From Carcharhinus amblyrhynchos (Eukaryota), in assembly GCA_965287045.1 (NCBI GenBank), contig OZ336870.1, positions 110,174,001 through 110,238,000 on the forward strand: a stretch of 64,000 bases of DNA, read 5' to 3'. Below the pieces are notes generated by a model. The model saw only the letters and a program-made list of their open reading frames with translations, did not search any database and was not told the DNA's origin. Positions 1-64,000 of the stretch are shown one piece after another; positions within the stretch are counted from its first letter, which is position 1, and each line of letters begins with the position of its first letter. A program made the position numbers and the translations under genes.

Positions 1-132
1 TTTGCCTACTTCTGCTCCTAATTCCTATGTTTTTATATTTCTAAAATCTTGGCATGCGCACTACTGAAATTTTGTTCTCTGCTCAAAGCATACAAGAGCT
101 GAGAGTATAATTTTATCATTTTTCTGTGCCCG

Positions 133-4685: not shown

Positions 4686-4841
<156 letters not shown>

Positions 4842-8994: not shown

Positions 8995-10250
8995 ACCAAT
9001 AACTCTGGTGTCGCCCAAGAATCTACCCTTGGGCCCCTTCTTGTTTCTCATCTATATGCTGCCCATTGACAATATCATCTGAAAACACAATATCAGATTC
9101 CATAGATATATTGGTGACACCCAGCTCAATCTACTTTACTACCACCACCTTTCTCAATTCCTACAGTCACTGTTTGATACCTAGTCTGAGCAGAAATAAT
9201 CTTTTAATCAAATATTGGGAACACTGAAACAATTATCAGCGGATCCTGCAGTCAACTCTGTTCCCTAGCCATTGATTCCATAGCCATCTGAGGTAAAATT
9301 ATAGAAACCTACAGTGCAGGAGGAGGTCATTCGGCCCGTTAAATCTGCAAGGACCACAATCCCATCCATGCCCTATCCAGTAACTCCATGCATTTACCCA
9401 GCTAGTCCCCCTGACACTAAGGGACAGTTTAGCATGGTCAGTCCACATAACCTGCATGTCTTTTGGATTGTGAGAGGAAATCGAAGCATCTGGAAGAAAC
9501 CCACGCAGACATGTGGAGAATATGCAAACTCCATACAGTCAGTGATTCAAGCTGACAATCGAACCCGGGTCCCTGGCGCTATAAGGCAGCAGTGCTAGCC
9601 ACTGTGCCAAAGCACACTGTTTACATATCGTTACCAGGATATGCTTTTGACCTCATATCGTTTTCATCACCAAGACTATGAATTTTCACCTCCACGTATT
9701 GCCTGTCTGTGCCTCTGCCTTAGCCCATCTGCTACTAAAATCTTCGTCTGGCATTTTGTTATCTCCATGTGTGATTATTCGACTACCATTTTGGTCAGCT
9801 TTATCTTACATCCTCTGTGAACTTAATTTCATCCAAGATTCTGATGTCTCTGTTTTGTCTCACATCAGGTCCTACTCACCCATCACCCTGTGATCTCTTG
9901 TCTACATTGGTTTTTAAATCAGCAACACCTCAAATTTAAAATATGTTCAAGTCCTTCCATGTCCTCATATCTCTATATGCCTATGAGTACTCAAGGTTTT
10001 CCAATTCTGAACACTTGTGCATCCCATTTCCTCACCCCTAATTCACAGCTGTGCCTTCAGCTGTTTATGCCCAAAACTTCAATATTTTTTCCCCTGATTC
10101 TCTCCACTCATGACCTCGTTCCTCCATCAAGCCACCCATTAGAACTTACCAAGTTCTTGGTCACCTGCTTCGATCTCCTGGTGAGCATTAACACTTCTCT
10201 GAAGCATTTTGGGATGTTTTATTGCCTTAATGAAAGTTATTCTTGTTGCA
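8995..10250 (+). mobile_element. Decayed L2-type LINE fragment, interrupted by a V-SINE
   Basis: Degenerate GV.Q.S.LGP.LFLIYMLP...DTQL reverse transcriptase motif at 9007-9128 and an L2-like 3' end near 10200-10250. Confidence 0.7.
9300..9610 (-). mobile_element. V-SINE (HE1-like)
   Basis: Same V-domain and tRNA head (ggcacagtggctagcactgctgcc, ccgggttcgatt) on the minus strand. Confidence 0.9.
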
Positions 10251-10284
10251 TTCAATGCAAATTTCACAGAAGTCATTGCAGAAA

Positions 10285-10890
10285 ACATAAAGAGAAAATG
10301 CTGGAAAATCTCAGCTGATCTGGCAGCATCTGTGTTTTGTGTCTTTATGACTTCTTCAGAGTTAGAGACAGCAAAATGTGATGGATGTTATGCTCTTTAA
10401 AGAGGTGTAGAGAAAAATGGAAGGTCAAGGATGAGTGGAAAAATAAAAATTGGTGGACAAAGATGTCGTGGGCACACAACAGAGGGTGCATAAATGATGA
10501 TGTTAATGACTAAAGTAGGGGCTAATAGTGGCACAAAGATAAGATCGCAGAATGTGTTAATAGCATAACAAGGGTGAGCACTTTGTGAAAGCAAAAATTA
10601 AGAATAAGTGACAGATGGCTCAGTGGAGGAGGGGGATGATTGGACAAAAGAAATTGTATTAAAAGTGGGGGTTCTATATGCAGCAGGGAATTCATGGTCT
10701 GAAAATCTTGAGCTCGATGTTAAGTCCAGAATTCTGTAAAGTGCCTAATTGGAAGATGAGGTGCTACTCCTTCAGTTTGTGTTGGGTTTCGTTGGAAAAT
10801 TGCAGTAGGCCAAGTATGGACATGTGGGTAGAGAGTAAGATGGTGAGTTGAAATGGCAAGCGAGAAGAAGGTTGGGGTCATGGTTGTGGT
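10285..10890 (-). mobile_element. Penelope-like element 3' fragment (GIY-YIG endonuclease C-terminus, 3' UTR and terminal repeat)
   Basis: The minus strand of 10692-10885 translates, with one frameshift and one stop, as HDPNLLLACHFNSPS..HMSILGLLQFSNETQHKLKE*HLIFQLGTLQNSGLNIELKIFRP*. It ends in a degenerate CTGAAGA-hairpin motif at ~10335-10362. Confidence 0.8.
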
Positions 10891-11639
10891 ATTTTGCTTT
10901 CACATCATTGCGAAAAATACTGGAATTGCATGACCAATCATTTGGCACCTGACAAGATTTATTTATGTCATTTTGTAGACTTGCATAACCTCATCACGCT
11001 TTGAAGTTTCCATAAACCCTAGAATTTTGTGGCACTTCAAGAAAAATCTCTGCAGCAAGCAAATGTCATTTGATGTCATTGCAATCACGGTGTACTTTAT
11101 TTCAATGCTGGATTGAAATGGTTTGAATTTGGGGCTGCAGTTACAAAAGGTTGTGCAGTTTACACTGTGTAAAATGCTGGGTTTAGCCCTCCTTGGTTTC
11201 AAAATGCAGTATTACACAGTTGTACAGAATTAGCTGCCAATTAACACTGGTTATTTAATCTAGGCAGAAGTAAATGAACAAAATAGCTAGACATACAATG
11301 AACAGTGCAACAGTTAAATGCTGCATTTGAAACTCAATGGCCGAATGAAGCAATTTACACAGCCTATTAAAAATATATCTGATGTAGCAATACTTGGTAT
11401 ACTGCATGAATCTCAACTGACAGGGAAAACACTAATCGCCATTAATTTAGTTTTAATTGATCCTCCATTTTGCACTTTATCTAGTAAATTGGATTTGGAG
11501 ATTCTACAAAACTAGTTGGATATAAATGAGCCTAGGAATTTTGCACCTTGCTTGTTATACTCACGACTGCATAGTAAAGAGTTTCTAGGCTGCATTACAA
11601 TTAGGATCAGAAGGTGGATGTCAGTTGCTATCATGTAAT

Positions 11640-12025
11640 AGAATCTCACACACAACCGAGCCCATTAACAAACATGGAATCACACACACCAAACTCATCG
11701 ACAGGTGTGGAATCACTCACACCAAACTCATTGAAGGATGTGGAATCACCCACACCAAACTCATCAACGGATGTGGAATCACCCACACCAAACTCATCGA
11801 CAGACGTGGAATCACACACTCACACCAAACTCATCAACAGATGTGGATTCACCCGCACCAAACTCATCGAAGGACGTGGATTCACCCGCACCAAACTCAT
11901 CGAAGGACGTGGATTCACCCGCACCAAACTCATCGAAGGATTTGGACTCACTCGCACCAAACTCATCGACAAATGTGGAATCACTCACACCGAGCTCATC
12001 GACGGATGTGGAATCACGCACACAC
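11640..12025. repeat. Minisatellite, 33-bp unit, ~11.5 copies
   Basis: Unit GTGGAATCACCCACACCAAACTCATCGACGGAT with variants, including one 4-bp insertion near 11818. It explains the overlapping repetitive ORFs at 11614-12190. Confidence 0.95.
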
Positions 12026-13595
12026 TTGTACTCAATGCTACATCTAATGAAGACGAACATGCCTTATGCCTTATTTATCACCTTGGCCCACTGTGTTGCT
12101 ACTTTTAGAGAACTGTGGACCTGCAAATCCAAATCCCTCTGTATGTTAATATTTCTAAGGGTACTGCCATTTACAGCTTACATTTTATAATGTTCTCATC
12201 TTTGGTTCAAAGCAGATCTTGGAGTATAAATCAGTAAAAAGTTCATTGCAAGTCAATCAGGTCATAACAAAACCATTGGGCTTTCTTTCCAAAGGAATAA
12301 AACTGCATCTAGAGAAGTTATGCCAAATATCAGTCAAGCCATGTCAGTGTGTGCAGTGTGGTCACCATGTTATAAAATGGATGTCGAGACACTGAGGAAA
12401 GGGAAAATAAGACTTCCTAAGGTGATATCAGAACTGCAAGTCTACACTCATTGGGAAAGAATGAACAGGTGAAATCTTTTATCATTTGAAAAGAGGAATC
12501 TGAGGAATGACTTCATGGAGGCTTTCAGATTTTGCAAGGTTTTAGCAGACTTAACACAATGGGAATATTTCCACTTCCAGGAAAGAGCAAACTAAAGGCT
12601 ATTAGTGTAAAACTGACACTCAAATTTAAAAAGAGAATTGAGGAAAACTTCTTTACTCAGAATGTAATGAAAATGTAGAGCAGAGGGGGCAAAATTGTAT
12701 ACTGCTTCCAATGGGTGGGGGCAGGGGGAGGGGGTGTTCTGAGGCTGAGAGTAGGGGAGCCTGCCTGTCCCAATCCAGATGCAACTTCATGTTCCAGGGC
12801 CTTGTGGGGAGGGTAGGGAGCGGGGGTGCGATGGGGAATCTCACCTTTTCACCTGTTTTGTTCTTAAGTGGCTACATAAGGCTGTTATCCTATCCAATCC
12901 CAATTTTTAGGCTGGCAGAGTATGTGTGGGGAGGGTGGGAAATGGATATGTCCACCTGTCCCCATGTCGGGTGGAAAGGGGAGGAGGGCGTCTCACACTG
13001 AATTTCCACCCGTGTCCCCCCATCCCTCAGAGTTTGAATGCCATATCCCTCCCCGGGATATTGGCATTCCAGGTGCCCCTCCTTGCATGGCCTACCCTGA
13101 TGCTATTTTTCACCCCTGCTCTCGACCCACCAGGATGCCCCCGACTTCCCAAAACCAATCCCCTCCCCACCCCTCAAACTTGTGCTAAAAATGTCTACAT
13201 CTTGTGGAAACCAATTTGAATTGAGAGAGAGTTAGTACTTTTGGCTGAGGAAGTTGCTGAAAGTAAAAGGAATCCATGCATACTCGTTCAATTCTAATGG
13301 GAAATCATGGGAGGTTCTAACATGATATTAAAATGTGACGTCTGCACTTAAAAGAACCTGGCAGTCAACAAGCAAAGCCATGATTTTCTGAAAAGATGCA
13401 AATAAAAATTGGCCTTTGAGGGATGAATTTATATTGGAATGTGGCAGAAATATGAAATGTCATCAAACAGGTGAAACACCTTCTGACTGTTTTCATCCAA
13501 AGTGCCATTTTGAGATTTACCTAAATGTGAGAAACACCTCTATTGAGATAGGTAACTTTATTGCCAAGATCTACACTACATCTCAGTCTACAATT

Positions 13596-13714
13596 CAGAT
13601 GCTGGAAATCTGAAATAAAAATAGGAAATGGTTGATCAACTCAGCAGGTCTGGCAGCAACTGTGGAGAGAGGAACAGAGTTAATGTTTCGAGTCCATGTA
13701 ACTCTTCTTCGGCG
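13596..13714 (-). mobile_element. Penelope-type terminal repeat fragment with degenerate minimal hammerhead motif
   Basis: The minus strand reads CCGAAGA-A-GAGT(tacatgg)ACTC-GAAACATT-AAC then tctctccacagttgctgccagacctgctgag. Same family as 10285-10362, 35250-35356 and 54815-54910. Confidence 0.7.
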
Positions 13715-16700
13715 AAGAATATATAGTAGGACAGTGGTACTTAGGCCACCAATCTGTTCTTGGTCATGTTAAGCACCGTGAGCATTTTATATGGGGATCC
13801 ATGTACACAGATCACTAAAATGTGAGGAACAAATAATAACAGAAAAAGCTAATTAAATTCTAAGGTGAGATGACATGAATTAGGTCTGTACACCCTGACA
13901 TTTGGGAGGCTAAGAGCTGGGTAATTTGATGGAAATTTTCAGGAGTTTGAAAGGAAATGATAGAGCATCCAAATCAGAACCAGGTCATTCAGGAGAAAAA
14001 GTTAGGCAACACTTCTTCACACAAGGAATAAGACCGTGGAACTCTCTGCCACAGAAAGCAGTAGATGCTGACTTAATTGTTGGTTCAGATTTTGCTGAGT
14101 GCAGTACTCACTATTCATCTCGAGAGAAATTGCACACTAACAAGCTGCAAGGCGCAGAATTCTTCTGAAGTCAATTTGAATTCTGTGACCTCGACATGCA
14201 GTTTTCCTGACAAGATGAGCAACTGAAAGACTGATCAGCAAATCAGATTGAAGCATCCTCACAGGAACGAGGGGCTGGGTGAACTGTTCTGATCTTACCG
14301 AGTACATTAAACAGCTGTTGAAGCCTCCTCAAAGATCAATCAAGACTACAATTACGCTGATGGACAAACATCAGTCAATGCCATTGCTGCATCTATTATC
14401 CATTCTCCACATATTAAGTGCCCAGCTATTGTTACAATCACTTCCTTACTGTACATCAATGCGTGTCAGTTCGCCCGACCACAAACATCTATTAATACGC
14501 CTTTGTAATATTACAATAGGCAGAAAGATATGACACAGTGCATATACAACCAGCATTAAGCATATCTGTTACATGAATTCCAAATAAAAGCACCCAGAAC
14601 CTCCATTTTGATACCTGCATCCATCATTTTTAAGGGCAATCCTTTTGATCTGATTGGTTACAAATTCTATGCCTGCTGAAATGATGCAGTCAGCACCTTG
14701 AACCAAAGAGACAAAAGCTCACATTCAATAATGACTTTAATAAGTATAATTGAAATAATGAACACCCTCATGATGTACAACATCATTGTTGAAAGGGCAC
14801 TATATTCATGATTTTTGTTCTGCAAACCTTTATTCCTGTCTTTGTAATATGTCCAATGTTATACAAAGGAGGTACGTTTCTACATTTTAATATGATTTAA
14901 GTTACTGCTTGCTGAAAAAACAGTCATATAAAAATATATCCAAGTATACAAAGGAGTTTGTCAAACGCATTTTTCACAAAGCGAATGATATTCTGTTCAA
15001 TTCCAATGGCAGTTTCAGTCATCAATTTAGACCTTGTGAAATTGGATTGCTTTCTTCTATTCGAGGATCAGATTTGTGTATTTCAATAATGTTGTCAAGT
15101 ATTGTGGGAGATTTTAGTAGATTGTTTTAGACCTTCACTTCAAAAATTAACTTCATGCAAAGGTTGATTTTCTTGCGATATACATACCAGCTCACTCTAT
15201 CAAATGGCTTAATGTATAAACCTAGGGGCTGAGTTCAATTCTCAGCAGGTGTGAGAAATGGATGATTCTGGCTTGGCCACCAACATGCACATCCTGCTCA
15301 ATTTTCTTTCCATTGAAGCTAAAGAAAATCAAAATTGGAAGTGTATGAAGGGCAGCTGATCCGCTAATGTCAGTTTCATGTCCTCTCCCCACATTACATT
15401 GAAAGTTGAATTGCACCTCCTTCATAGAATTTTTTGGCATTGAAAACTATCACAGGAGAACAAGCTTCCTTATATGTTATGCATTAAATATTAGGTGGCC
15501 GTCGCAAGGACTAAATTCTATTTTTATGTTTATATCCCTTCTTGGTCTCACCCCTCCCTGTTGGTGCAACCTCCTTCAGCTCTGCTATCCCATCCCCGAT
15601 CTCTCTGCTCTAATCTGGCCCATGTTTATCCTCACCTTACCTTCCTTTCACTTATCATTGGCCATCTAATCAGTTCTCATCCTCTGGGAAAGCCCTCCCT
15701 CAATCCCTCATCCCCTGGTTCTTCACCTTTAACCAAGCTTTTGATCAGGCCTGCTCATATCTCCTTTTGTTTCTGCTTTGATTTATTTACGAATGCACCT
15801 CCTTGAGATGTTTTTCTGCTTTAAAGTTGTTACATAGATACATGTTGCTTTTGTTGTAATATACCTGAGAAGACCAAGGTGTGTGTACCTTGATTGTAAA
15901 GATGAATTGACGAGAGTACATGAAAATAGCTCTCATGTTGACACATAATTGAATTGGGAGACATCTCATAACTGGGTTTGTTTCCCACGATGTAGCTGCC
16001 AGGGATACTGAAGATATTTAATCTTTTCTTTGAAAGAAGACATTTGCAGTATAATGGATTCAAAAGTGCAAACATCTGAGGTGCAGGCAGGCCCAGGTTT
16101 TGCTCATGTATTGACCTCTGTCCTAATATTCATCACAAGTGATGACAAAACGCATTGTAAATCCATTTTAACAGCAAGAAAAATCTTTTCCAGAAAAAAG
16201 TCCCATAAAACACACACAAAAAAATTTAAAACACTGGATGTTCTAATTCTTAACTGTGAGAATGTTTGCCCCACTATTCTAATTGCAGCAAAGGATAAGA
16301 GGATTCAGTGTTCAAAGCTCATCTTTTGGAGTGTGGGGCAAGTTGAGAGTATAATGCTCAGGGGTCTACAATGTAACCTGTGGACGCTGACTAGACGCAT
16401 ATCCCAAAAAGGAGAAGACATTGCAAAATCATCAGGGTTAATATATAATACTTTACAAAAATGTAATATATATTACATATAATATACAATATAATATATT
16501 ACAAAATATATAACATATTACAAAATGTGTTGCAAATTATTACAAGATATTTCCTTTTCCTATTAATTTTTGTGTATTTTTTTAAATTACAATAGCTAGT
16601 AAACCTTCATGAAACCAGAGGGAATAATTCTTTGGCCAATCTGCATGACTTTAAGGGTGTATACATATATCTAAAAAGGAATTGACTGTAGAGATACCTC

Positions 16701-16818
16701 TAGAACTAAATATGACAAGAATGTTGTTATTACAGTGTACTTTAATACATTAAAAGCTTAAGCTTGATTTATCTTTGTTCATCTCCTTCATCTTTAAATG
16801 TAGCTCATCTTCCAGTAA

Positions 16819-17049
<231 letters not shown>

Positions 17050-18497: not shown

Positions 18498-18758
<261 letters not shown>

Positions 18759-21022: not shown

Positions 21023-21993
21023 TACTTTGTGTTATTTTGAACTGCCATTATTCTCTCAGAGGTGAGGATGGGGGATGTTGAAGAACATCAACCAAGCAAT
21101 GCCAGGGAGATCAGCTGGTTACCCCCTCATTTTAGCATCAAGCATATCAGCAGTCTAGAAGTCAGGGCACCTTTTATCCCAGAATAAATGAGAGGAGATT
21201 CCTCTGCAGAGCTATCACATCTAAACATACCTGCCAATGTATGCTATAGATACAGCATGCTGCTGGTGGCAGTAAGCCATCTCCTCCCCCATCTATTATG
21301 CCTGTGCAGAACTAGATTGAGGATTACATGTAGCTTCAATCAATTTGCTCTCCTTATTGTATCAAGCTAGTGATTGCAGCATCATTTACTTTATCATCTT
21401 TCCCACTGAACAAACATGTCATGACTTTCCAATATCCAATAATTGCTGCATTTCCCAACACTACCAAAATTGTTGTAAGCACAATTTGGAAGGAAGCACT
21501 AACATTGTGAATTTGTGTGCTTGTGCAATTAAACTGCCACACTTGCTGCTGTTACTAAAGTGATGGGTTCATCTGGCCCAAAGGGAGCAAGTGTTCCTGG
21601 AGGGATTGCAGTAACTAAGCTAGAGTTTTCATTCACAGGCCAGTCGTTTCCTTTTCTCTTCCACATTTTTTGGCACAACAGGAACTACATTCAGTGTGAC
21701 TCTAGCACAGAGCATGGCATAAGAAGATCACCAAAAGCAGGAAAGCGCTGTCAGTGGTGTCAGGTGACATATACATGGTCTTAAACTCTGCTGCTCCATT
21801 ACATGAGGGCACAGCAGCCTGGTAAAGATAGTGCAGGTAAGGAGGCTGACATTTATCAAGGAGGCATGACCGAGATATGCCATTGCCTTCTGAAAGATCA
21901 CTATATAATGAGTAAAACGCTATTAACAATTAAAGTTAGTGTGGCCTTGATTTTCATGCATTATTTGATTTCTACTCGAATACTGGTTGGGTG

Positions 21994-23275
21994 TAACATC
22001 ATAGAGAAAATGTTAGAAACTATTATTATTGCAGCTGTAGCAGAGAACGTAGATAAGTTCAAAGCAATCAGGCAGAGCCAACATGGTTTTGTGAAAAGAA
22101 AGTCATATTTAACCAACCGACTGGAGTCTTTTTAAGGAAGTAACTTGTGCTGTGGATTATGTTCTTATAAAGGAGAACAGGTGGATGTACTGCACTTAGA
22201 TTTCCAAAAGGCATTTGACGAAGCGCTGCATCAGTGGTCATTGTGGAAAATAAATCTCGTTGTATAGGAAATAACATATCGGCATGGATATTGGTTAGCT
22301 AACAGGAAGCACAGAGTAGGCATAAATGGGCCTTTTTCAGGTTGGCAACAATGGTTTAACATGGGGATCAGTGCTGAGATCTCAACTCAACTGCTCACAA
22401 TTTAAATAAATGACTTGGATGAGGGGATGGATGGGATGGTTACCAAATTTGCTGCTGACACAAAGATAAGTAGGAAATTAAGTTGTGATGAGGACATGCG
22501 GAGATATAAGGGGTTAGGTGAGTGGGCAAAGAACCGTCAAATGTAGTATAATGTTGGAAAATGTCCATTTTGGCCCAAAGAATGAAAGAGAGGTTTATTA
22601 TCTAAATAATGAAAGATTACAGAGCTCCGAGGTGCAGAGGAATCTGGATGTCTTACTCCATGAATTGCATAAGGCTAGTATGCAGGTACAGCAAGTAATT
22701 AGGAAAACTAATAGAATATTATCATTTATATATGCTATTATCAAGTAAGGAGGTCATGCTTCAGTTATATACAGCACTAGTCAGATCATATTTGAAGTAT
22801 TGTGTACACATCAGTCACCTTATTTAAGGAAGGATGTAAATGCGTTTGAACCAGCTCAGAGAAGGTGTACCAGGCTAATACCTGGAATGGGCAGGTTGTC
22901 TTATGAAGAAATGTTGAACAGACGACATTTGCATCTGCTGGAGTTTAGAAGAGCAAGAAGTGACTTCATTGAAACATGTAAGATCCTGAGGAGTCTTGAC
23001 AGGATGAATGTGGAGAGGATGTTTCCTCTTGTGGGAGTATCTAAAATTAGGGGTCATTGTTTAAAAATAAGTTGTCACCTATTTAAAATGGAAAGGGGGT
23101 GAATTGTTTTCTCTCAGAAGGTTGTGGATCTTCAGAACTGTGTTCTTGAAAAGGAGGCTGAAGCAGAGCCTTTGAACATTTTTAAGGCAGAGGTGAATAG
23201 ATTCTTGGTAAACAAGGGGCGGGGGGTGAAAGGTTATCAGGGATAGGCATGGTGCAGATTTGAAGTTACTATCAG
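21994..23275 (+). mobile_element. Decayed CR1 LINE (reverse transcriptase to 3' end)
   Basis: ORF pieces EKMLETII..RQSQHGFVKRKSYLTNRLE, LDFQKAFD, LQSSEVQRNLDVL and LSYEEMLNR..LEFRR, with many stops and frameshifts. Confidence 0.9.
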
Positions 23276-23941: not shown

Positions 23942-24005
23942 CCTCCTCCTCAGATCTATGATAAACAGCTTGATGAAAGAGAGCACAGTATAGATGAATG
24001 GAAAG
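23942..24005 (+). CDS. MAPK10: MAPK10/JNK3 coding exon, 64 nt
   Basis: Translates PPPQIYDKQLDEREHSIDEWK(E), with ttttgtag and gtaatg boundaries and consistent phase. Confidence 0.97.
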
Positions 24006-26069: not shown

Positions 26070-26147
26070 AATTAATCTACAAGGAGGTGATGGATTTTGA
26101 GGAGAAAACTAAAAATGGTGTTGTGAAGGGGCAGCCGTCTCCCTCAG
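26070..26147 (+). CDS. MAPK10: MAPK10/JNK3 penultimate coding exon, 78 nt
   Basis: Translates (E)[25 protein letters not shown], with tttgacag and gtaaat boundaries. [16 protein letters not shown] is JNK3-like. Confidence 0.97.
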
Positions 26148-38436: not shown

Positions 38437-38988
38437 ATCATATATTGTACAGAAAATCAACAACTCTTGCATTTGCATCATGTTTGTTGGCTGGAATGTC
38501 ACCAGTCACTGAAAAGTGAATTTTCAAATGTGTCAGCAGAAGGTCACCACACCAGAGGATTGATGGGGTTGATTAGCTTGCCAGGGTAACTGAGTGTGCC
38601 TATGCACAAGTGACGCAAAATATTCTTTGATGCGGTTTTGTCCCTTAAATCAGAAACAGCCACTCAGAAAAATACAAGTTTTGAAAGAATTGAACACCTT
38701 TATCTGTATCTTTCTCTTCTGGATAGTGGCCTAGACCAGCTGAAGAAGGAATTCTCACACTGCTACCCTATGGAATATGATTGGCCAATATTTGGTGTCA
38801 ATATAAAGCTAAAACCATTTAGCATCATCACTAGTATGAAAACATGCTTTTGGCAGGAAATGCAACAGGAGCTCAATTTTTTTAAAAAGTGGGCTCTGTA
38901 GTGTGCACATCCTTTAATAAAGAGGAAAGAATGTAGTCCTTATGAAACTGTGTTCCCGGATTTTATGGCTCTACTGTTAATTTCTCAG

Positions 38989-39005
38989 CACAGGTGCAGC
39001 AGTGA
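38989..39005 (+). CDS. MAPK10: MAPK10/JNK3 terminal exon, proximal acceptor (short p46-type C-terminus AQVQQ*)
   Basis: tttctcag|CACAG: using the upstream AG adds 5 nt, giving (G)CA CAG GTG CAG CAG TGA, the known JNK short-isoform ending. Confidence 0.92.
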
Positions 39006-39133
39006 ATAGCAGCGAAAGCCTTCCTCCATCCTCATCAGTAAACGACATCTCATCTATGTCAACCGATCAGACCCTCGCGTCCGACACTGACAGCAGCCTG
39101 GAAACTTCAGCAGGACCGCTTTGTTGCAGGTGA
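38994..39133 (+). CDS. MAPK10: MAPK10/JNK3 terminal exon, distal acceptor (long p54-type C-terminus)
   Basis: Translates (G)[45 protein letters not shown], diagnostic for JNK3. TGA at 39131-39133. Confidence 0.97.
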
Positions 39134-39175
39134 CTAACCGTCTGCCTGCGGAGCCCCTTCTTCTTTAGAAAATGA
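39131..39175 (+). other. MAPK10: Stop-codon readthrough signal and extension of MAPK10 long isoform
   Basis: TGA CTA context, then an open frame LTVCLRSPFFFRK to a second TGA at 39173-39175. Mammalian MAPK10 is an established UGA-CUAG readthrough gene. Confidence 0.75.
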
Positions 39176-39647
39176 TGCAAGGACTAAATACTCAGCGCAC
39201 CTCTCTGGAAAAGAACTATTTAAAAAAGAACGTGGAAGTACTGATGCTAAAATATTATGTCAAAATGCTTTGCTTATACCTCATTCCAATGAAACTAACG
39301 CTCATTAAGAGTATTAGGCAGCATCATTTCACATGTAAATATGTGACTATAAATAAGCTCCCTTTGGCACTTGCTCTGGCAACGCAAGGCGAGCGGGAAA
39401 GATGCAGCATTATAGTTAAAACTAAATGCACTTTTGTCTCAAAGTTGCAATATGTGTCCCTTCTTCCACTTATGTATTTGCTGACTATAAACACCTTGTA
39501 GAAATATAATCCTATAAATGGCCATATACATATTACCTACCAAAAAACTCATGGAACCCATGTTCATGACAGTAACTATGAAAACGACAAACAATGCAAT
39601 TCTATTAATCCTTTGAGCGTTGAATTTCATTGTAGTTTAAGACACAT

Positions 39648-39653
39648 AATAAA
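39648..39653 (+). terminator. Candidate MAPK10 polyadenylation signal (alternative at 39987-39992)
   Basis: AATAAA in repeat-free AT-rich sequence after the stop. Usage cannot be shown from sequence alone. Confidence 0.3.
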
Positions 39654-42338
39654 AATTAATTTGTAAGTCTAATTAAAGGGACATCCAAAAACACAAACCA
39701 TTTCTGACCATGCATAGACTATAAACTGTAATGTTCCTTTTTTTTGTTTAGAAACATTATGGCTTCCATGAACTGTTAAAGGGTTTATACCTTTTTTCTC
39801 TGGCCCAATTGGGCTGCAGTTTAAGTTTGCCAAATACATATAATTTACAAAAATCTTATCGTAGTTGACCAATTTTCATAAAACGTATCAATGTCTGTGG
39901 GCTGATGTTACGTTATAAATGGTAAGGTGGTGGCTATGTTCTGTTATACTTTGTCATTTATACAAACCTAAATTGAACATCCTTTTAATAAATTATGACA
40001 AGGCAACACATGCCATACAGTATGGCATGATTCTGTTCATTAGCTTTTGGATGTGACAATGTGATATTATCACTTAAAAAGAATTAAAATTGAGTAAGGC
40101 GAGCAAACTCAGTTAGATTTGCAATCTGACTTGAGAGATTCTGAAATTTCTGCTCATACATGCATTTGTATGCTATGTTTTAAGGTGGCAGGAACATCTG
40201 GCCAGTGAATTAAAAGACATGCACATATAAAGCAATCGCACATCTTGACATAATTGGCTGCACAGTCTTTAGTTGCACTTGCCTGTAGTTGTGCATGATC
40301 AAACTTCCAAATATATTACTTTAAAATGGAAGGAAAAATATACTTAGATATACTGTAGGCTATTATATGGTACATAATGTATGCAGCCAAGGACCTGAAA
40401 AGTTTGCTGTATTCTTAAACTCCTTTAATGCTGAACCTGCATGGACTCACAATATGCCTACTCTGCTCCCCAGCAAACATGGGGTGGAATTTTATGGACT
40501 CATTGCAGCAGGGGCAGAGCCAGAAAAGACAGCGAGTAGTTTGAAAGTCCATTGACTTCAGTGGGATCAGAAAAACTCCCACCACAGAGTTATTTTGAAT
40601 TGCATTAACCAGAATCAAATTTATTAACTGCCCACTTGAAATTACAACAAAAATCTTAACTGGTGGGATGCAAAACATGAGAGACTAACATTCAAGACAT
40701 GACTAATGCGAACTCTACTAAAAAAGAGCATTGGGGTTTAAAACCACAATGAATTCATCTTAAATCAGAAGGTTCAAATTTAGGTTCAGATCAGGACTGA
40801 AATGACAATATGAAATTGTGCAAGATTTGGTTGAGTTGCATATTTGTGAAGAAGTAATTTTTGGGAAAAATGATTGATTCTCAAAAGAAAATCAGAAAGA
40901 TTGGTTGCATGACTCGGTATCTAAAGTCCTTGGAACATTTCAATAATTTATCACAGTGAAAGAGTGCTTTCAAAATAGCAGTTAGGATGTAGCAAAACTC
41001 TATTCGCTTTGAGATAAAAGTTATGGATAACTGAAACTGAAAAGTAAGCACACAACAGGACAGAAATGAATGTACTTGAGGGAATAACATGAATTCAGCG
41101 AAACAAATATTCTGATATGAAACATGGTAAGCATTCCTGTTCTCTGGCTTGTCGCAGTGAAACCGATTACTAAATGATCTGAAGCTGTTAGTGGCACGAA
41201 TCCCTGTTGGCGGTGAGGACATGTCAGAAAAATTAAGCTGCTGAGCCTCATTGAAATATCCTTATTTTGTCAAATTTCATCTCAAATTTCCCAACTTGAA
41301 TGAGACTCCGTCACCTGCAATGCACATGCACAATGCTCAAGTATTCCCATAGATTTCAAGCTTGGCCTATGAAGTAGGTTTACAGGGAAGATAATGTCAT
41401 ACAGTTGTCAGGAATAATATTTGTTTTCTTCTGTGTTTTTAGGTAAATTTTGTTCCATGCTTTAGTTGATTTTACGAGGTTGCCAGTCCACACTTTGAAT
41501 TGTTTACTCTGCTAATCCTTTCCATCCTATTATTTCACATTTCTGCAGCCATTTAAGTAACAATAACCAAGTGGTCAAACTGGGAATTTATTGGAAATGT
41601 TATTGGATTTCATTATTCAGGTAAGGGAGATGATTAGGACTAGGAATGTAATATACCAGGATTATAAACTCCACAGGAAAGATAGGGAAAATGATAGCAG
41701 GGAAGTAGCCTTTGTGATTAAGAATGTGACCACTTTGATAATAAGGGAGGATATAATGAGAGGCAATTGAAATGGATAGAATTAAGAAATTGAAAAGAAC
41801 TTATGACTGGAATGAGATTTAGTTATTTTCCCAAAGTAACAGCTGTGGGGTGGTAGATTGTATACATGCTAAGTGGTTTTAATGGAAGATTTTATCTATA
41901 TGAACTTGAATAAGCAAACTAACTCATGTCAGAAAGGCAGTGAACTTCTTGAGTGTGCCCTAGATAATTTTGTGCAGCAATTTGCCCTAGAGCCAAAAAG
42001 AAGGGGTGGGCATGCCAAGTTAGATTTTGTAACAGATAATGTGTCAGATTTAATCAACAACCTAATGGCATGTGAATGTTTATCGAACAACTATCATAAT
42101 ATTCAAAGCCGTGTTTGCAAAGGAGAAATGCAAAGCAACTACAAAGATTACAAATTCGGTAAGGCTGACTTCAATGGGATGGGACAAAGACTGTTGACAG
42201 TTAACTGGGCAATTCTGTCAATTGGTAAAATGACAAGATCAGTAGGATGTGTCTTAAAAAGGTGTCTTGGCTAAGGTCCTGCACTTGATGGAAGTCAATG
42301 AGCTTGTACTGAGGCTTCATTTGAAGCAACTTTTTAAA

Positions 42339-42544
42339 ATGCCATCTCAGCCTTTTGGCTAAGATGGAGCTCACATCAGGCACTGGAGGGGGTGTGATGC
42401 CTGCTCCTATCAGCTTGGATTTGGTTGATTGAGTTCAAGACGGGAAATGCACAGCCTGTCTTGTCAGCTTGGATCTGTAATGTCTCTCTTGTAGGGACTT
42501 TAATTGGACTTTGATTGGATTTTGATTGGATATAACAAAAAAAA
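42339..42544 (+). mobile_element. Short A-tailed insert with U2 snRNA-like 5' sequence
   Basis: TCTCAGCCTTTTGGCTAAGAT (42345-42365) matches U2 nt 7-27 at 20/21. Two further U2-like blocks lie at 42401-42416 and 42455-42474. It ends in (ttgattgga)x2 plus A8 and interrupts the CR1. Confidence 0.6.
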
Positions 42545-43407
42545 GTGACACAGAACCAGTTTATACCCCTAAGGAGTAAAAGCTCTACTTGTCAAAATAA
42601 ATAATCATGGGCAACTGAAGAGGTAAAGTACAGCATAAAACGAAAAGAAAAATCATACAAAAATGGAAAAAAAATCAGAAATCTTAGCAGCTGGAAAAGT
42701 TACAAAACAGCAAAGGGTGTTAAAGATAAAAGCTGCAAAAATAGAGTACTAAAAGAAACATGCAAACAATGTAAAAATCAAGGCCAAAAACTTATTTTAA
42801 ATAATTTCATTTGGAAAAAAAGTGTAGTCAGAAGTAATGTGAGTTTTTTGTAAACTGATAATGGTGCTATTTTCAACGAAATGAAGGAGATGGCAGATAT
42901 GCTGAATAATTACATTGCACTAATGTTTACAGCAGAGCAAGAGGTTAGAATGCTAGATATCCCAAGGAAATGAATCTAGATCAGGGAGTCAATTAAATTA
43001 ACATAAGCAAAATAAAAGTAATGAAGAAAATAAGGGCACTAAAGAATGAAAAATCATCAAGACCCAGATAATATACATCAGAGTTTTAAAGGAAGTGGGT
43101 GAGAACATTGTAAATGGCCTAGTTATAATCTTCCAACATTCTCTTAACTTGGGAAGTGTTCCGTTAGATTAGAATATGATGCAGTTGCTGCAATTTTAGA
43201 AAGGTATGAGAGAGAAATAAAGACAGTTAGAGTTAGCCTAACATCGGTTATTGAGAAATTACAAGTGTCTGTAAAAAAGGAAAGATTAATTGAACACCTT
43301 GAATATTTTCAGCTGATCACAGAGAGTCAGCACAGATTTGTAGAGGGTAGGCCATGCTCACATACCTGGCTGGACTCTTTGAAGATGGAGTAGAAGCCAT
43401 GCTTCAG

Positions 43408-43810
43408 GGGAGATGATGACATAGTGAAAATGTCTTAACACCAACAATCCAGAGGTCCAGGCTGATGCTTTGTGGCCACAAATTCAAATCCCTGTATGCA
43501 AGTGGTGGAATTTAAATTCTATGAATAAAATGTGGAATTGAAGGCTCCTCTCAGTAAGGGGGGTGGCCATGGAACCAGCATTGATTGTTTTAAAAATCCA
43601 TCTAGTTCACTAATATATTTTAGTGAAGGAAATCTGCCATCCTTACCTGGTTGGGCCTACATGTGACTCCAGAACTACAGCAATGCGACTGACTCTTAAC
43701 TGCCCTCTGAAATGGCCTAGCAAGCCACTTGCTTCAAGGGCAACTAGGGATTGCCCAATAAATGCTGGCCTTGCTAGTGACACAGACATCCCATTAACAA
43801 ATAAATTAAA
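43408..43810 (+). mobile_element. tRNA-derived SINE (family 2)
   Basis: Shares its body with 3460-3833 (gaaggaaatctgccatccttacctgg...actcttaactgccctctgaaatggcctagcaagccact). Confidence 0.8.
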
Positions 43811-46800
43811 AAATATACACAAAGCCCAGGTTAGAACACAGTATATATTTCCTTGTATGATACTTGGACTCCAAGGGTTAAACTTTGGGCAATTACACAA
43901 TTACATTCCCTGGAATTTCCAAGATTAAGGGCTGATTTTATCAGTTTTTAAGATATTGTAAAAAAACAGAGTGGATAGAGAGAAACTACTTCCACTGGTT
44001 GGACAGAGATTTGGGGTCTCTTCTTAATGCACTTCCTGGAACCATCAGATGCCACCCCCAACCTCCACTCATATCCACAGGTTGTCATTTCCTTTTGACG
44101 TCTCAAACTAACCCCTGCCTCCCCACTCTCCTTGTCCCCTTTTCTGGGGTTTGCCAACTGGGCATTCAGCAAGACCCCCATACATTTACTAAATCCTGAT
44201 CCAATGATAGAGAGCTACCAGTTTCTAATTGGCCGGCAGCTCTCAGAGGCATGGCTTCCTGTTCCTAAGAGATTAAAATTCCCCTCCAGCCTATTAATGA
44301 ACAATTGGCTGTTAAATGGCTGGGGGGGGGGGGGGGGCAGCAGTCAGCATTCCCTTGGCAGGGTCCCTCCTGACTTTTTAAGAAGGTGATGTGGAAGACT
44401 CTGGAACCATGTAAAAATTCAGCCAATCAAGTTAGCTTGTGGATCACCATGATCTCATTCAATGATGGAAGAGTTTTGAGGCTCTAAAATGGCTTAGTCC
44501 TGTTCCTATGTTCCTCACATATATTCACAGGGTTCAACAAATTGGAGACAAGAGCACCATAGGGGTTTTCTAAATCCTTTACCACCGTGTGTTTAGAAAA
44601 TTTGTTTCAGCTTAGCTGGACATTTCCTAAAATTCACTGCCTGTGACATAGAGAGGAGTTACAACAGAACTGACGTATCCAAATAATCAACATGTGCAAC
44701 AGGAGCATGTTTTCCCAGAATAGGGAAGCTGATCACAGATTAAGACTTTTATTCCTGTCAATCTACCAAGGATTCCCTAATATGTCAGGCAGTCAGCAGT
44801 GCACAACTAAATTGGGCATGGCAGGTTTGCAAACATTTACCTGGAAGTAGCTTTTTCTATGTAGAATCCCCTCAGTGCCCACATTATGGAAAGAGAAGTA
44901 ATACTGAATGGCTGACTCTTAGGAGAGGAGAACTATTCTTCTTCTGCCCTGATGGCAGTGAGAAATCCCCATCCACTCATCAGCCAAGGAGTACTGAAAA
45001 CTGGGACCCCCATCTCTGTTTTTCACATTCTAACATGCAGTCTGTGTGGTTTTGGCACAATGAGCCACATACGTGAATAGTAATGGTATATACACTGGTT
45101 GAAATTGTATCTCAGAAATGCTGCTTTGTATTAAGGATGATGAGCCCCACAAGAAATATGTGCAAGTGACTCACATTTGACTTGGCCCTGACACTAATCC
45201 CTCCTTTCTTATAATTAATATAAGGGATGTGGTTAGCTCCAAATAGCAATCATTATTTTCTGACACACAAAGACAGATCTTCTACTCAGAGCAAGTAAGA
45301 CCATTTAGATTTCAGAATTTTTAAAAGTAAAACATTAGTTAAATCTGCTTTACAACATCTGTGTCTTGAAATGTTATTCAAGCATCTAGACATTTTTGCT
45401 GATATTTTTCAAAATTATGGTGAAGATTAAATGTTTCTCCTTCCTACCAGCTTCAAGTATCATTGTCTGTGTCAAAGAGTCTGTGTCTTCTGGTCCATTT
45501 GGAATCAATTGTTCACTTTTGGGTTATAGTATAAATTGCATAGTTAGAGTAAAGAGTTACAGGCAGGCTTAGTTTTTAATTTTTTTAAAAAAACAGGATT
45601 TGCTGGCATGGTAGAAATTAGGAAATATAGTTTAAGGTCCAGAAGACATACATCTTAAGCCATCAACATTCCTCAACCCGTTCCACAAAACTTGCATTGT
45701 TCAAGAATTTAAAATGCAAGTTGTTGTAATTGTATTGACAAGATCATGAAGTGTCCTATATTTTACAGCAGCAGAGGTTTTTGTCATTAAATACTTTATT
45801 AAATAACTTCCTCAGTCCCACGGCCCTCTGAGTACTCTGCATTCCTCGAATTCTGGTCACTTTCATACGCTAGGTTTAATTAGCTCCATAATGCTTTCAG
45901 TGTTTAACCCCAAAGTTCTGGAATTGCTTTCTTAAACCTCTCAGCATTTATGGAGTATCTTAAATGATATCTCCTTGACCAAGCATTTGGTCTCCCGCTC
46001 CAATGTCTCTTTCTTGGGCTCAGCACCAATTTTTAGTTTGTCTGATTACATTCTTGTGAGACATTTTACAACAGTAAACACACCATATAAGTGTGAATTG
46101 TAGTTATCGAATGTTCAAATCATGTAAGTTATTCAATTTTTCACTATGTTTGGTCTAACTTTTTTGCTGTTAGCAATCTGATGCCTGTTATCAACCCTTT
46201 AACTGTTTACCAGACTGGGAAACACCCTTAATTCTCCCCATGGAGAGCTTCCACCATTCAGCACTCAACACTACCCAGCTCCTGATACATTAAATGTTAT
46301 TATTCCAAGCTGCACAGTCTCTTCTACATCCAGTATTGGTAAAAGCTGAACACTACGATTACTGGAGCCAAAATTGGGCCAATTAGTTTGATCATTGCTG
46401 CAGTTATATCAAGGCAACCCAGAATCCAACGAAGTGTAGCTGTCCCCTTCAACCAGTCTGTTTACGGTATTGGAAATGAGATGTGTTTGGGAACAGTCTT
46501 CTAACTGACTGCTCTACTAGTGGCAGTGTAGCAGAATAAGCCTGCTCATGGCCTAACATGGAAACCCTGTTCTAAATTGAGGCCATTCATATCATTGAAG
46601 TGGGCTGCAAGTTATTACCAAGCATTCATTTTAGAGGTGTTCATCCAGATTTCCCATGTAAGGTAGAATAGCTGACAACCACCACGAGAGGCGCCCTCAG
46701 GCTCATGTCAGGCTGACAAACACATGGCCAAATAAGGCTGCAGCTAAAACATGGAACAGAATCCAGACGAGAACATGTTCCATCCAGTTTTCTGACCTCT

Positions 46801-56072: not shown

Positions 56073-56316
56073 TCACTGTATCCAGATGGTATTACTTCTA
56101 TCTGGTCTTCGTGTCTCCACAGTCAGATCACCAAACGTCGAGAAAAATTGCTCCATCTCTTTTTGCAACATTTCATTGCGTTTCTCAGCATCCTCCCGTG
56201 CACGCTCTGTGTTCCTCATCTTTATCTCCACCATGGTATATTTCTTCCTTTCCTGGTCAAGTTCCTCATGAAGTGTCATTACCTCAGACTCTAGCTCAAT
56301 GTTTCTCTGTTCCAAA
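56073..56316 (-). CDS. ARHGAP24: ARHGAP24 (FilGAP) last coding exon, C-terminal coiled coil, 244 nt
   Basis: Translates [80 protein letters not shown]. The acceptor ttgttgcag ends at 56317. The NTIWIQ end and tail-to-tail position with MAPK10 match human ARHGAP24. Confidence 0.96.
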
Positions 56317-58414
56317 CTGCAACAAGAATGACAGGGAAATGATCAAATACTCATGCTCATTTTGATAGATGCAACTATTAGATTGAAAGTTGACCACATT
56401 CCTCTTGCAAAGACTCAAGTTTATCAATGTTATTTAAACAAGATATTTCTGTTTACACCAAAATGACATACATGATGGATAGATAGGATAATGGCAGCAA
56501 ACTATACGAGAAGGAGTTAGAATTCATCTTTCTGCCTGGGTGTGAATCTTGTTATAAAGCCACGCTTTATAAAAATGACATTATGAAATGATTAACTAGA
56601 AACCATGGAATTGTTTTCTAAGAAAAGGCTAATGCCACATTTCAGTGACTTCAAACTGCAATTCCTGAGATGGCTAAAAGTTTGCATCATTGTACACAAT
56701 ACTATCTATTAAGGTGGAGCCAACCTGTGTAGAAAACACAAGCAGAGACAATAACCTTGAAGAAGTGTCAATGAGATCATCCTAATTCTTTCACAGAACA
56801 CCCCAGACATCACCTGACTTGGCATTATAAGTAATCACCTCAGACAATGAACTTGATCTGATCTACCCCTAATCTAATCAAACTGAAACCACCTGCCTGG
56901 AATACACCATTCATGACTATATTTGGGTCACAGGTCAGCTAACTCTTTTCATTTTTAAGAAACTGTTTGCTGCAGACCAGAGGCAGAAGCAGAAAAGACC
57001 CCTGTGTGGGCCTCACTTCCTCTCACTCTCTACCTTTCAAGCTTGAACCTGTCTACTGTTTGACTATCCAAGTGCCAAGAGATTTTAAAGAACTCAACAC
57101 AGCAGGGTCCACCTGTAACTTTAACGTCCTCAGAAAAAACACCAAGCTCAGCCTGGGTCTACCCAAGCCATCAACTTACACAAAGCATATAATATAGATT
57201 TTAAAATGCCACTTAATGTAACCTCCCACTCTGTACCTATTGTATTGGAGTGAATATACATGCAAAAGTTGCAGCACTTACATTATTTTTCTTAGACAGA
57301 GTTAAGAACAATAAATACTACTTTCTTTTTGTATGCATGTCTCTTGCAGTTGCAGCATGTAAACAATTAAAAAATAACTGAATGCATATCCTTTCTAAAC
57401 TCCTTTTATCACGAGTGGTCGGAAATGAGAGGAGCCATTCCACCTCTACTCACCTGATTGTCACAGCCAACTGATATCCAATCCAATTTGATTTAAATGG
57501 TTAAAGAACTAAAATGGGGTTGTTTCTGTAATATATGTACACTTAAAGACAGACAGGGAGAAAGAGAGAGACAGGAAGAGCTAATCTTATATAGCATTTC
57601 TCAAAGATTAGCTAGTGTTCTTTCAGATCACTCCTCAGGTATTGCCTATGGAAGTAAGCTGAATAGATCCTGATGTGAATCATATTTCGATATCCCTTGG
57701 GTGCAGGAGGTTTTCACGTTGCTTGTAAATTTCTGTCTCTATAAGCCTTTTTTCTCTCATTTTACTACTTTGAAAGATAACATCTCAATTATATAGGACA
57801 TTCTCAAAACAAGCTTGATGGTAGAATTTACTTTGAAGGATTTTTGGTTATTAACATGACTGGTTTCACTCGGTTCTGGTGTCACTGGACACGTAATAAA
57901 AAAGATCAATTTTGGAATGATTTCATTTGATGCTTCACAGCTTGGTAGGAATTTTAAGCTCATGGTAATATCTATAAAAGGTAATGAGAATGGGTTTCAG
58001 TATAGAAGCAGATTTTGTTTTATTCTCCCCGAGTATCAGACTATGCTGATTGGAAATGCTTGGGGGAATTCCATTCTGAGCTATCAATGAGATTTAAGAT
58101 TAACATTTGCAAGGCAAAAAGGAGATTTCAGCAAAACAATTAAAAGTTTCATGGTCCGTGCTCTCTAACCTGATAGCAAAGAAAAACAAAATAGCAATTG
58201 CTTTGCTGACGAACACATACATGATGTTGAGAACTCATTCTTAAATTGGACAGAAGCCTAGGTGAAGGTAACAAATGGCCTGATGCTATTACTGAAATCA
58301 AACAATCTCAGAACAGTAATGGTACATCTGGATTTCGCATTAGCAGAAGCCTGGAATAATCACTGGAGAATGTGGAGCATTAAGATCAGCAGTGAGGAGG
58401 CTGATGATGATAAT

Positions 58415-63157: not shown

Positions 63158-63374
63158 TGTGGAGATGCTGGCGTTGGACTGGGGTGGGCACAATAAGAAA
63201 TCTCACAACACCATGTAAAAGTCCAACAGGTTTATTTGGAATGATGAGCTTTCGGAGCACTGCTCTTCATCAGATGAGACTCACCTGATGAAGGAGCAGC
63301 ACTCCGAAAGCTTGTGATTCCAAATAAGCGTATTAGTCTTTAACCTGGTGTTGTGAGCCTTCTTACTGTGCCCA
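63158..63374. mobile_element. Penelope-type inverted terminal-repeat element (palindrome 63185-63374)
   Basis: Same family as 34972-35196: tgggcacaataagaaatctcacaacacc...tcatcagatgag / ctcacctgatgaagg...ggtgttgtgagccttcttactgtgccca. Confidence 0.85.
63281..63317 (+). ncRNA. Minimal type I hammerhead ribozyme-like motif (mirror copy on - strand at 63242-63277)
   Basis: TCAC-CTGATGA-a-GGAG(cagca)CTCC-GAA-AGCT-T-GTGA has a perfect 4-bp stem I (TCAC/GTGA), the core boxes, stem II and a palindromic stem III. Confidence 0.75.
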
Positions 63375-63380
63375 TTGCAG

Positions 63381-64000
63381 CTGGGAACGGACAGAGTGTT
63401 GGAGGAATACAGAGAGAGTAGGAGGGATCTCAAAAGGGGAGTTAGGAGAGCAAAAAGGGGGTATGAGCTGGCTTTGGCAGGTAGGATTAAGGAGAATCCA
63501 AAGGCGTTTTACTCCTATCTTAGGAGCAAAAGGGTGGCTAGGGGCAAAATCGGTCCTCTCAGGGACAGACGTGGGGAATTGTGCTTAGAGGCTGAGGGAA
63601 TGGGGGAGATCCTGAATGAATACTTTACGTCTGTATTCACGAAGGAGGGGGGCTTGATGTTTGGTACGGTCATAGAGGAAGCGGTAGACCAATTGAAAGA
63701 TCTATCGATTACGAGGGAAGAAGTGTTAGGGCTTTTAGGTAGCATTAAAACTGATAAATCTCCGGGGCCCGATGGCATTTATCCTAGGCTGCTTAGGGAG
63801 GCGAGAGATGAGATTTCTGGGCCTCTGATGCAAATCTTTGTCTCTTCTTTGGACACAGGTGAGGTCCCAGAGGCCTGGAGGATAGCGAACGTGGTACCGT
63901 TGTTTAAAAAGGGTAGGAGGGATAACCCGGGTAACTATAGGCCGGTGAGTTTAACATCAGTGGTAGGCAAGTTGATGGAGAGGATTCTTAGGGATAGGAT
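63381..64000 (+). mobile_element. Young CR1 LINE, 5'-truncated; ORF2 open to the window edge
   Basis: Uninterrupted frame ..RIKENPKAFYSYLRSKR..EILNEYFTSVFT..KSPGPDGIYPRLLRE..VPEAWRIANVVPLFKKG..PGNYRPVSLTSVVGKLMERILRDR. It is absent from the ORF track because no stop falls in the window. Confidence 0.95.

What the first reader, a model, noticed from the sequence alone, without database searches (positions are those of the whole stretch)
39131..39175. Conserved programmed stop-codon readthrough extension of JNK3, with a UGA-CUAA variant context
Seen: TGA CTA ACC ... AGA AAA TGA, encoding X-LTVCLRSPFFFRK*. Established: mammalian MAPK10 is one of the validated UGA-CUAG readthrough genes. From memory the human extension is of similar length and sequence (L..CLR.P.FFR.), which should be confirmed. 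Inference: readthrough is ancient in jawed vertebrates. The fourth downstream base here is A, not G, which may alter efficiency. The extension adds a third Cys and a hydrophobic/basic end beyond the palmitoylated CC, possibly changing membrane targeting.
Basis: partly seen in the sequence, partly recalled or inferred. Interest (0 to 1): 0.7.

Follow-up and report, generated by a model that had tools for sequence, protein, structure and literature searches.

The report
Known JNK3 leaky stop, shark copy
This shark-or-ray copy of the brain kinase gene JNK3 keeps the leaky stop signal and 13-amino-acid tail already published for humans and other vertebrates, so a few percent of ribosomes likely add the tail here too; it is real but ordinary.

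Summary
It ends the long splice form of MAPK10/JNK3 in a cartilaginous fish. The tail is under protein-level constraint: 34 of 34 stop-suppressed MAPK10 database translations have 13 residues, and 9 variants share L..CLR.P.FF. Against a teleost-type copy there are 4 synonymous changes, and similarity ends at the second stop. This is published: Loughran 2014 reports 13 residues back to lamprey and 5 of 73 without G at +4. A 2026 mutational-scan preprint measured CUAA: the only one of 765 +1..+4 variants that raised readthrough (1.76 to 2.28%), but background-dependent, and this copy also differs at +8. The A is gene-specific here: AQP4, four opioid receptors and MAPK8 keep CTAG. Readthrough was not measured in this animal. 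The scan noted this feature in three other genomes. More interesting side leads: the JNK1 paralog has TGA-CTAG plus 12 codons, kept in 2 of 2 covered relatives; JNK2 may carry a decayed tail; the mu and delta-like opioid receptors also carry the signal and tails. Verdict: already known, low interest.

The parts
4750..4821 (+). MAPK10 internal exon ([21 protein letters not shown] type)
   Evidence: AG/GT bounds and translation
16853..17035 (+). MAPK10 exon ([14 protein letters not shown]...)
18553..18677 (+). MAPK10 exon, end of kinase domain
   Evidence: Pfam PF00069 partial hit E=1.8e-5, below the curated cut-off
23942..24005 (+). MAPK10 exon (PPPQIYDKQLDERE...)
26070..26147 (+). MAPK10 penultimate exon ([11 protein letters not shown]...GQPSPS)
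   Evidence: the loose ends of 4 contigs read as this exon's end joined to the last exon
38984..38993 (+). Tandem 3' splice acceptors 5 nt apart: exon start 38989 gives the short form ending AQVQQ* (never reaches the leaky stop); exon start 38994 gives the long form ending GPLCCR*
   Evidence: upstream acceptor in X16 and X19, downstream acceptor in X18 and X20
38994..39130 (+). Last coding exon, long form; ends in the CCR motif, one Gly shorter (GPLCCR) than most vertebrate JNKs
   Evidence: CCR palmitoylation of mammalian JNK3 per 10.1101/2020.11.17.387191
39131..39137 (+). First stop TGA with 3' context CTAA (variant of UGA-CUAG)
   Evidence: unchanged in 4 of 4 related species
39126..39145 (+). 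Possible 7-bp hairpin enclosing the stop (pairing noted by Loughran 2014); the +8 C>T change keeps a G-U pair; role unproven
   Evidence: covariation not above shuffles
39134..39172 (+). 13-codon readthrough extension LTVCLRSPFFFRK
39173..39175 (+). Second in-frame stop TGA

Best explanation
The window holds the last exon of MAPK10/JNK3 of a cartilaginous fish, whose UGA-CUAA stop is followed by a conserved 13-codon frame, and a few percent of ribosomes on the long splice form likely read through it as they do in the human gene. Shown here: the sequence, the orthology, the fixed length, the synonymous-change pattern, and both splice forms in relatives. Shown by others in human cells: readthrough of MAPK10 (about 14%, 4-5% or 1-2% depending on the reporter) and that CUAA works in the human context. 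Inferred: the CUA after UGA weakens termination so that a near-cognate tRNA inserts a residue (Trp, Arg or Cys; recalled, not from a call); efficiency in this animal is likely in the low percent, not higher than human. Inferred and untested: the 14 extra residues move the palmitoylated CC away from the C-terminus and add a Cys, a Phe pair and basic residues, which would likely change acylation or vesicle/Golgi targeting of that JNK3 fraction.
For: Length 13 in 34 of 34 TGA-as-W translations of MAPK10-type genes; L, C, L, R, P, F, F invariant over 9 variants. Window versus L005: 4 identical, 4 synonymous and 5 non-synonymous codons of 13, both stops in place; similarity collapses after the second stop. 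In 4 related species both stops and CTAA are unchanged, with no indel; 2 of the 3 changed codons are synonymous first-position Arg switches (CGG>AGG, AGA>CGA), the third is Ser>Asp at a position that is Asn elsewhere. The last three sense codons equal those of L005, and Loughran reports UGC-AGG as invariant. Reporter data. CUAA is the only one of 765 +1..+4 variants that raised readthrough, and only in MAPK10. Nature mirrors this: AQP4 and 4 of 4 opioid receptors in this genome keep CTAG, while 4 of 33 MAPK10 tails from other animals begin LT, which needs A at +4.
Against: No readthrough product was observed here: contigs cannot show translation, and no ribosome-profiling or proteomic data were available. 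The 4 related species are close (3'UTR about 93-95% identical), so they add few independent changes; organisms H and I show the same changes in the tail, as do J and K. The 34 translations are unnamed, heavily redundant (7 distinct tails among the 33), were retrieved with the tail in the query, and their second W could be TGG. This copy differs from the human reporter at +8 (C to T) as well as +4 and lacks one upstream codon. The six +8/+9 single mutants lower readthrough by 0.82 points on average, and the only double within +1..+10 reported to raise it was 4A+8A; 4G>A flips sign with background. Efficiency here could therefore be lower than human. Loughran could not show the full-length HA-MAPK10 product because it expressed poorly.
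Confidence: 0.88

Rival explanations
1. The extension is an inherited relic in this lineage: the +4 A, +8 T and upstream Gly loss have cut readthrough to near background, and the frame survives because shark DNA changes slowly.
For: +8/+9 mutants lower readthrough and 4G>A has strong negative interactions, e.g. -1.7 points for 7G>T in the 4A background. The tail has 5 non-synonymous differences from L005. 3'UTRs of the relatives are highly conserved too: 8-10 changes per 155 nt versus 1-3 per 39 nt in the tail.
Against: All 7 invariant residues, the length and the second stop are kept; changes among relatives are mostly synonymous; CUAA alone is not a loss-of-function change.
Confidence: 0.07
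2. The stop context is conserved as a 5' splice donor (CAG|GTGACT) or an RNA element such as the stop-enclosing hairpin, not for readthrough.
For: 20 of the 120 listed homologs run on past the usual end with unrelated tails, most from directly after CC or CCR, as if gene models spliced there. The 27-nt context folds with z=-2.4, 2 of 200 shuffles as good.
Against: Those tails are unrelated to each other. 4 of 4 contigs run unspliced across the site, with no joints. Covariation of the hairpin is not above shuffles, 91 of 500, on only 6 sequences of which 2 are MAPK10. Neither idea explains a 13-codon frame with synonymous changes.
Confidence: 0.04
3. The UGA is decoded as selenocysteine.
For: Only that the codon is UGA beside two cysteines.
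Against: No Rfam family, SECIS included, reaches its gathering score in 38900-46000. Short reporter cassettes with 12 nt after the stop give full readthrough of the human gene.
Confidence: 0.01

Closest known systems
Vertebrate MAPK10 (JNK3) UGA-CUAG programmed readthrough, Loughran et al. 2014 (PMC4132726)
   Same: Ortholog; UGC-AGG before UGA; CUA after it; 13-residue extension; the same stop-enclosing pairing potential.
   Different: +4 is A (the paper counts 5 of 73 non-G but its main text does not name them; supplement not readable); +8 T; one Gly fewer before CCR; tail LTVCLRSPFFFRK versus the common LAACLRNPAFFRR (8 of 13 identical).
MAPK10 CUAA variant in the deep mutational scan of Toledano, Supek and Lehner, bioRxiv 10.64898/2026.07.14.738498 (preprint)
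   Same: The same 4G>A change; the only +1..+4 variant above wild type (1.76 to 2.28%).
   Different: Measured in human context in HEK293T. The natural copy is 4A plus 8T with further changes beyond +15 and upstream; the value for that double would be in a supplement that I could not see.
Other UGA-CUAG readthrough genes: AQP4, OPRK1, OPRL1 (PMC4132726); MDH1, LDHB (PMC12233894)
   Same: The same cis signal and no need for a long downstream structure.
   Different: In this genome AQP4 and all four opioid receptors keep G at +4 with 24-29 codon tails; MDH1 and LDHB were not checked.

Membership tests
MAPK10/JNK3 readthrough (Loughran 2014) | Gene is the MAPK10 ortholog | tested here: met
   96.9% to Narcine MAPK10 versus 81-85% to 4 MAPK8-type proteins; paralogs elsewhere in the genome. 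No tree was built.
MAPK10/JNK3 readthrough (Loughran 2014) | UGC-AGG-UGA-CUA context | tested here: met
MAPK10/JNK3 readthrough (Loughran 2014) | 13-residue extension with conserved residues and a fixed second stop | tested here: met
MAPK10/JNK3 readthrough (Loughran 2014) | Measured readthrough above background for this sequence | not testable with these tools
   Only human-context reporter values exist
Strict UGA-CUAG motif class | G at +4 | tested here: not met
   A at 39137 here and in 4 of 4 relatives. It is the tolerated CUAA variant; G is present in only 68 of 73 MAPK10 orthologs, so it does not define the MAPK10 family.
Selenoprotein UGA recoding | SECIS element in the 3'UTR | tested here: not met
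   0 Rfam matches at gathering score in 38900-46000
Structure-stimulated readthrough | Conserved stem-loop or pseudoknot starting 3' of the stop | tested here: inconclusive
   Only a short hairpin that encloses the stop itself, without covariation support; RNAz found none in MAPK10

The most novel reading that the evidence does not exclude
UGA-CUAR readthrough is older than the split of the three JNK genes. Sharks and rays still read through JNK1 (MAPK8: TGA-CTAG plus a 12-codon tail, kept in 2 of 2 covered relatives), JNK2 carries a decayed copy of the tail, and JNK3 has moved to CUAA, the one base change that the human gene tolerates, in at least two lineages. Cartilaginous fish would then preserve an ancestral, larger readthrough repertoire, also covering the mu and delta opioid receptors, that mammals have pruned.
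Probability: 0.3. Interest if true: 0.5.

Novelty: already known. Interest (0 to 1): 0.2.

Why it matters
The finding itself confirms published biology in one more lineage and gives a natural test sequence (4A plus 8T) for the epistasis map of the MAPK10 signal. The job of the JNK3 tail is still open, and the invariant Cys and Phe pair next to the palmitoylated CCR point to what should be mutated. If the side leads hold (JNK1, mu and delta-like opioid receptors), readthrough tails were inherited through the vertebrate genome duplications and lost gene by gene, which dates the mechanism and adds unannotated isoforms of well-studied signalling proteins in fish.

Tried and rejected
No RNA holder is listed on record for this stretch; runs used as RNA are guesses, although their contigs join exons. 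Run X24 gave no cover and X21 covered only the UTR of the MAPK8 locus, so 2 of 4 runs were informative. The metagenome scan gave 5 loci from 65 candidates; L008 is a chance match and L007 a divergent MAPK9-like end; both were left out of the alignment and statistics. Protein searches for a shark-type MAPK8 tail found none; the one stop-suppressed MAPK8 (P0144) has the unrelated amniote-type tail. The ESM Atlas did not name the downstream neighbour's last exon: generic coiled-coil hits, recognition under 2300. Pfam gave no hit for 2 of 3 exons. Hairpin covariation was not significant. A genome-wide shift from CUAG to CUAA in this lineage was rejected: 6 of 6 other CUA-bearing stops examined have G. 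No structure or complex prediction was run: a 14-residue lipid-modified tail is not suited to it. Literature searches for JNK1 readthrough or a JNK3 tail function returned 0 papers; searches were seen as listings only and showed no title on this; PMC8159799 mentions readthrough only in its reference list. The library lacks most subscription journals, so absence is not proven.

Full report
1. Observation. The window reads TGC AGG TGA CTAA at 39125-39137. The frame stays open for 13 codons (LTVCLRSPFFFRK) to a second TGA at 39173-39175. Of 2796 TGA triplets on both strands of the window, 0.57% are followed by CTAR and 2.8% have the next in-frame stop 13 codons later.

2. The gene. Six exons of a JNK lie at 4750-4821, 16853-17035, 18553-18677, 23942-24005, 26070-26147 and from 38989/38994 on. 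The last five, joined in a script, are 96.9% identical to Narcine MAPK10 and to the Callorhinchus JNK P0035, and 81-85% identical to four MAPK8-type proteins. A DNA search of the own genome found two paralogs. L003 is MAPK8: its last exon is 100% identical to shark and chimaera MAPK8 proteins. L002 ends in DGCR and is taken as MAPK9 by elimination and by the GCR motif given for JNK2. The animal is therefore a cartilaginous fish, probably a shark or ray: the one-residue-shorter GPLCCR end occurs in 1 of 212 matching proteins, the ray Narcine, while Callorhinchus has GPLGCCR.

3. The last exon has two acceptors 5 nt apart. The upstream one gives a short protein ending AQVQQ*, which stops long before 39131. 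The downstream one gives the long form ending CCR*. Contigs of relatives show both: X16 and X19 use the upstream acceptor, X18 and X20 the downstream one. Readthrough can only apply to the long form, which is also the palmitoylated one in mammals (passages of 10.1101/2020.11.17.387191, and PMC11417247).

4. Conservation of the tail. A search with the last exon read through as TGA=W listed 120 of 368 hits. The top 10 are unnamed translations in which the stop position reads W (apparently called with a TGA=W code) and which carry the tail. With cluster members and one later hit there are 34, and all 34 have 13 residues before the next W. Among the 33 the tails were LAACLRNPAFFRR 19 times..RG 4..SR 4, LTACLRNP(V/M)FFRR 4, and two singletons. 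With the window's tail there are 9 variants sharing L..CLR.P.FF... Limits: they are unnamed and redundant, they were ranked with the tail in the query, and the second W could be TGG. At DNA level a teleost-type MAPK10 locus (L005; group inferred from its SSSINDISS residues) has 4 identical, 4 synonymous and 5 non-synonymous codons against the window, with both stops in place. The first 43 nt after the stop beat all 1000 shuffles, the next 43 do not (p=0.985). In four related species (runs X16, X18, X19, X20; organisms H-K) TGA-CTAA and the second stop are unchanged and the tail has no indel. The changes are CGG>AGG (Arg, H and I), AGA>CGA (Arg, J and K) and Ser>Asp (J and K). Against this: these species are close, and the UTR itself has only 8-10 changes in 155 nt.

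5. What is already published. Loughran et al. 2014 (PMC4132726; I read passages and section 11 whole; the supplementary PDFs were too large) report about 14% readthrough for human MAPK10, an extension that is always 13 residues and conserved to lampreys, invariant UGC-AGG and CUA, and G at +4 in 68 of 73. PMC12233894 (passages) gives about 4-5%. The preprint of Toledano et al. 2026 (abstract, passages and sections 5, 7, 9, 10, 13, 14; supplements not seen) gives 1.2% individually and 1.76% in the library. It finds that 764 of 765 variants at +1..+4 lower readthrough; the exception is CUAA in MAPK10 (2.28%).

6. Does the A matter? The preprint names wild-type MAPK10 bases 4G, 5C, 7G, 8C, 11G, 12C, 13C, 14T, 15G. 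The window matches all but +4 (A) and +8 (T), so it is likely the library's double mutant 4G>A_8C>T in this stretch. The only double within +1..+10 reported as raising readthrough is 4G>A_8C>A, the six +8/+9 mutants average -0.82 points, and 4G>A is the most epistatic change, with effects of both signs. So higher efficiency in this animal is not supported; low-percent readthrough is the best guess. As a control I looked at other readthrough-family genes in the same genome. AQP4 (named from its recalled C-terminus and a MIP-family hit) has TGA-CTAG and 28 codons. All 4 opioid receptors found have TGA-CTAG and 24-29 codons. The A is therefore specific to MAPK10, as the reporter data predict. Four database tails begin LT, which requires +4 A, and their AAMN/AMN residues resemble named cyprinid-type entries, so the switch probably happened more than once (inference; no tree).

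7. Mechanism. Shown: sequence, orthology, constraint, splice forms. Shown elsewhere: leakiness of the human context, which depends on CUAG and about 12-27 downstream bases. Inferred: a near-cognate tRNA outcompetes release factor at a low rate and the product gains 14 residues. A 7-bp hairpin can enclose the stop and tolerates +8 T as a G-U pair, but it would be unwound when the stop is decoded (inference) and its covariation is not above shuffles. The function of the tail is untested; searches returned no paper on it. The invariant Cys, Phe pair and basic residues directly behind the palmitoylated CCR make altered acylation or vesicle targeting the most likely role.

8. Rivals. A relic with little readthrough (0.07), a splice donor or RNA element (0.04; 20 of 120 listed gene models run on past the usual end, but 4 of 4 contigs are unspliced there), and selenocysteine (0.01; no Rfam match).

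9. Side leads, which are more novel than the finding. (a) MAPK8 here ends TGA-CTAG with 12 codons (LASLSLGSDCLR) to TAA. In 2 of 4 runs laid (the 2 with cover; organisms H and J) both stops and CTAG are kept, with no indel in the tail. Changes are synonymous third positions plus Asp>Tyr; three changes fall in the 4 nt after the second stop, and 4 indel sites lie further on. Against it: the tail is no less variable than the UTR (2-3 of 36 versus 7 of 116 and 10 of 138), it does not resemble the JNK3 tail as protein beyond its first residues, and an amniote-type MAPK8 (L004) has TGA-CTAC and an unrelated 42-codon frame. (b) The 43 nt after the MAPK9 stop (TGA-TCAG) align to L005 with one gap at p=0.003, to the window at p=0.017 and to MAPK8 at p=0.013; these are uncorrected over 15 pairs, and 5 of 30 control pairs further downstream reached p=0.03-0.08. 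This is suggestive of a decayed tail, no more. (c) The mu receptor (L010; 340 bits to mu versus 237 to kappa) and the delta-like receptor (L012; named by elimination, its best hits are mu then delta) share the TQIT motif near the tail end with the kappa-like one. Loughran's main text names only OPRK1 and OPRL1. Searches surfaced no report of (a) or (c), within the limits of the library.

10. Earlier notes of this scan describe the same JNK3 feature in three other genomes and a shark kappa-receptor tail; none on MAPK8. I had read both key papers before seeing them.

11. Verdict. Real, correctly interpreted and already known. Interest 0.2. The ancestral-repertoire reading has probability about 0.3 and would deserve about 0.5.

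Noticed in passing
L003:1468-1509 (minus strand; G000:C31): The MAPK8/JNK1 paralog has canonical TGA-CTAG and a 12-codon frame to TAA, kept in 2 of 2 covered relatives with mostly synonymous changes; candidate unreported readthrough.
   Followed up: partly
L002:1458-1503 (minus strand; G000:C13): The MAPK9-like paralog has TGA-TCAG; the next 43 nt resemble a decayed copy of the JNK3 tail (p=0.003 against L005, uncorrected).
   Followed up: partly
L009:1651-1740, L010:1651-1740, L011:1651-1728, L012:1287-1379 (minus): All four opioid receptor genes end TGA-CTAG with 24-29 codon tails; kappa-like, mu and delta-like share TQIT near the end. Mu and delta readthrough is not in Loughran 2014's main text. 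Conservation in relatives was not tested.
   Followed up: partly
L037:2703-2792 (G000:C8): AQP4-type gene ends LSSV, TGA-CTAG, with a 28-codon extension, matching the published AQP4 readthrough.
   Followed up: yes
window 39113-39130: One-codon deletion before the palmitoylation motif (GPLCCR instead of GPLGCCR), shared with the 4 relatives and the ray Narcine but not Callorhinchus.
   Followed up: partly
window 4750-4821: JNK3 exon of the [14 protein letters not shown] type with an unusual Asn in DNWSVGC. From recall this is the alternative (beta-type) member of the mutually exclusive exon pair; no second copy was found in 1-16850, so the other may lie upstream of the window.
   Followed up: no
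window 56076-56342, minus strand: Last exon of a tail-to-tail neighbour ending [24 protein letters not shown]; from recall an ARHGAP24-type C-terminus, which fits MAPK10 synteny. The Atlas search did not confirm the name.
   Followed up: partly
window 39126-39137: The stop overlaps a donor-like CAG|GTGACT; 20 of 120 listed homolog models run on past the usual end with unrelated tails, but no junction was seen in 4 contigs.
   Followed up: partly
window 103-1239, 21785-23099, 41873-43390, 63357-63998: Fragments that look like LINE reverse-transcriptase frames (CR1-type by recall) in introns and flanks.
   Followed up: no
window 11589-12187: Tandem repeat in an intron that gives periodic open frames in all three plus frames.
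   Followed up: no
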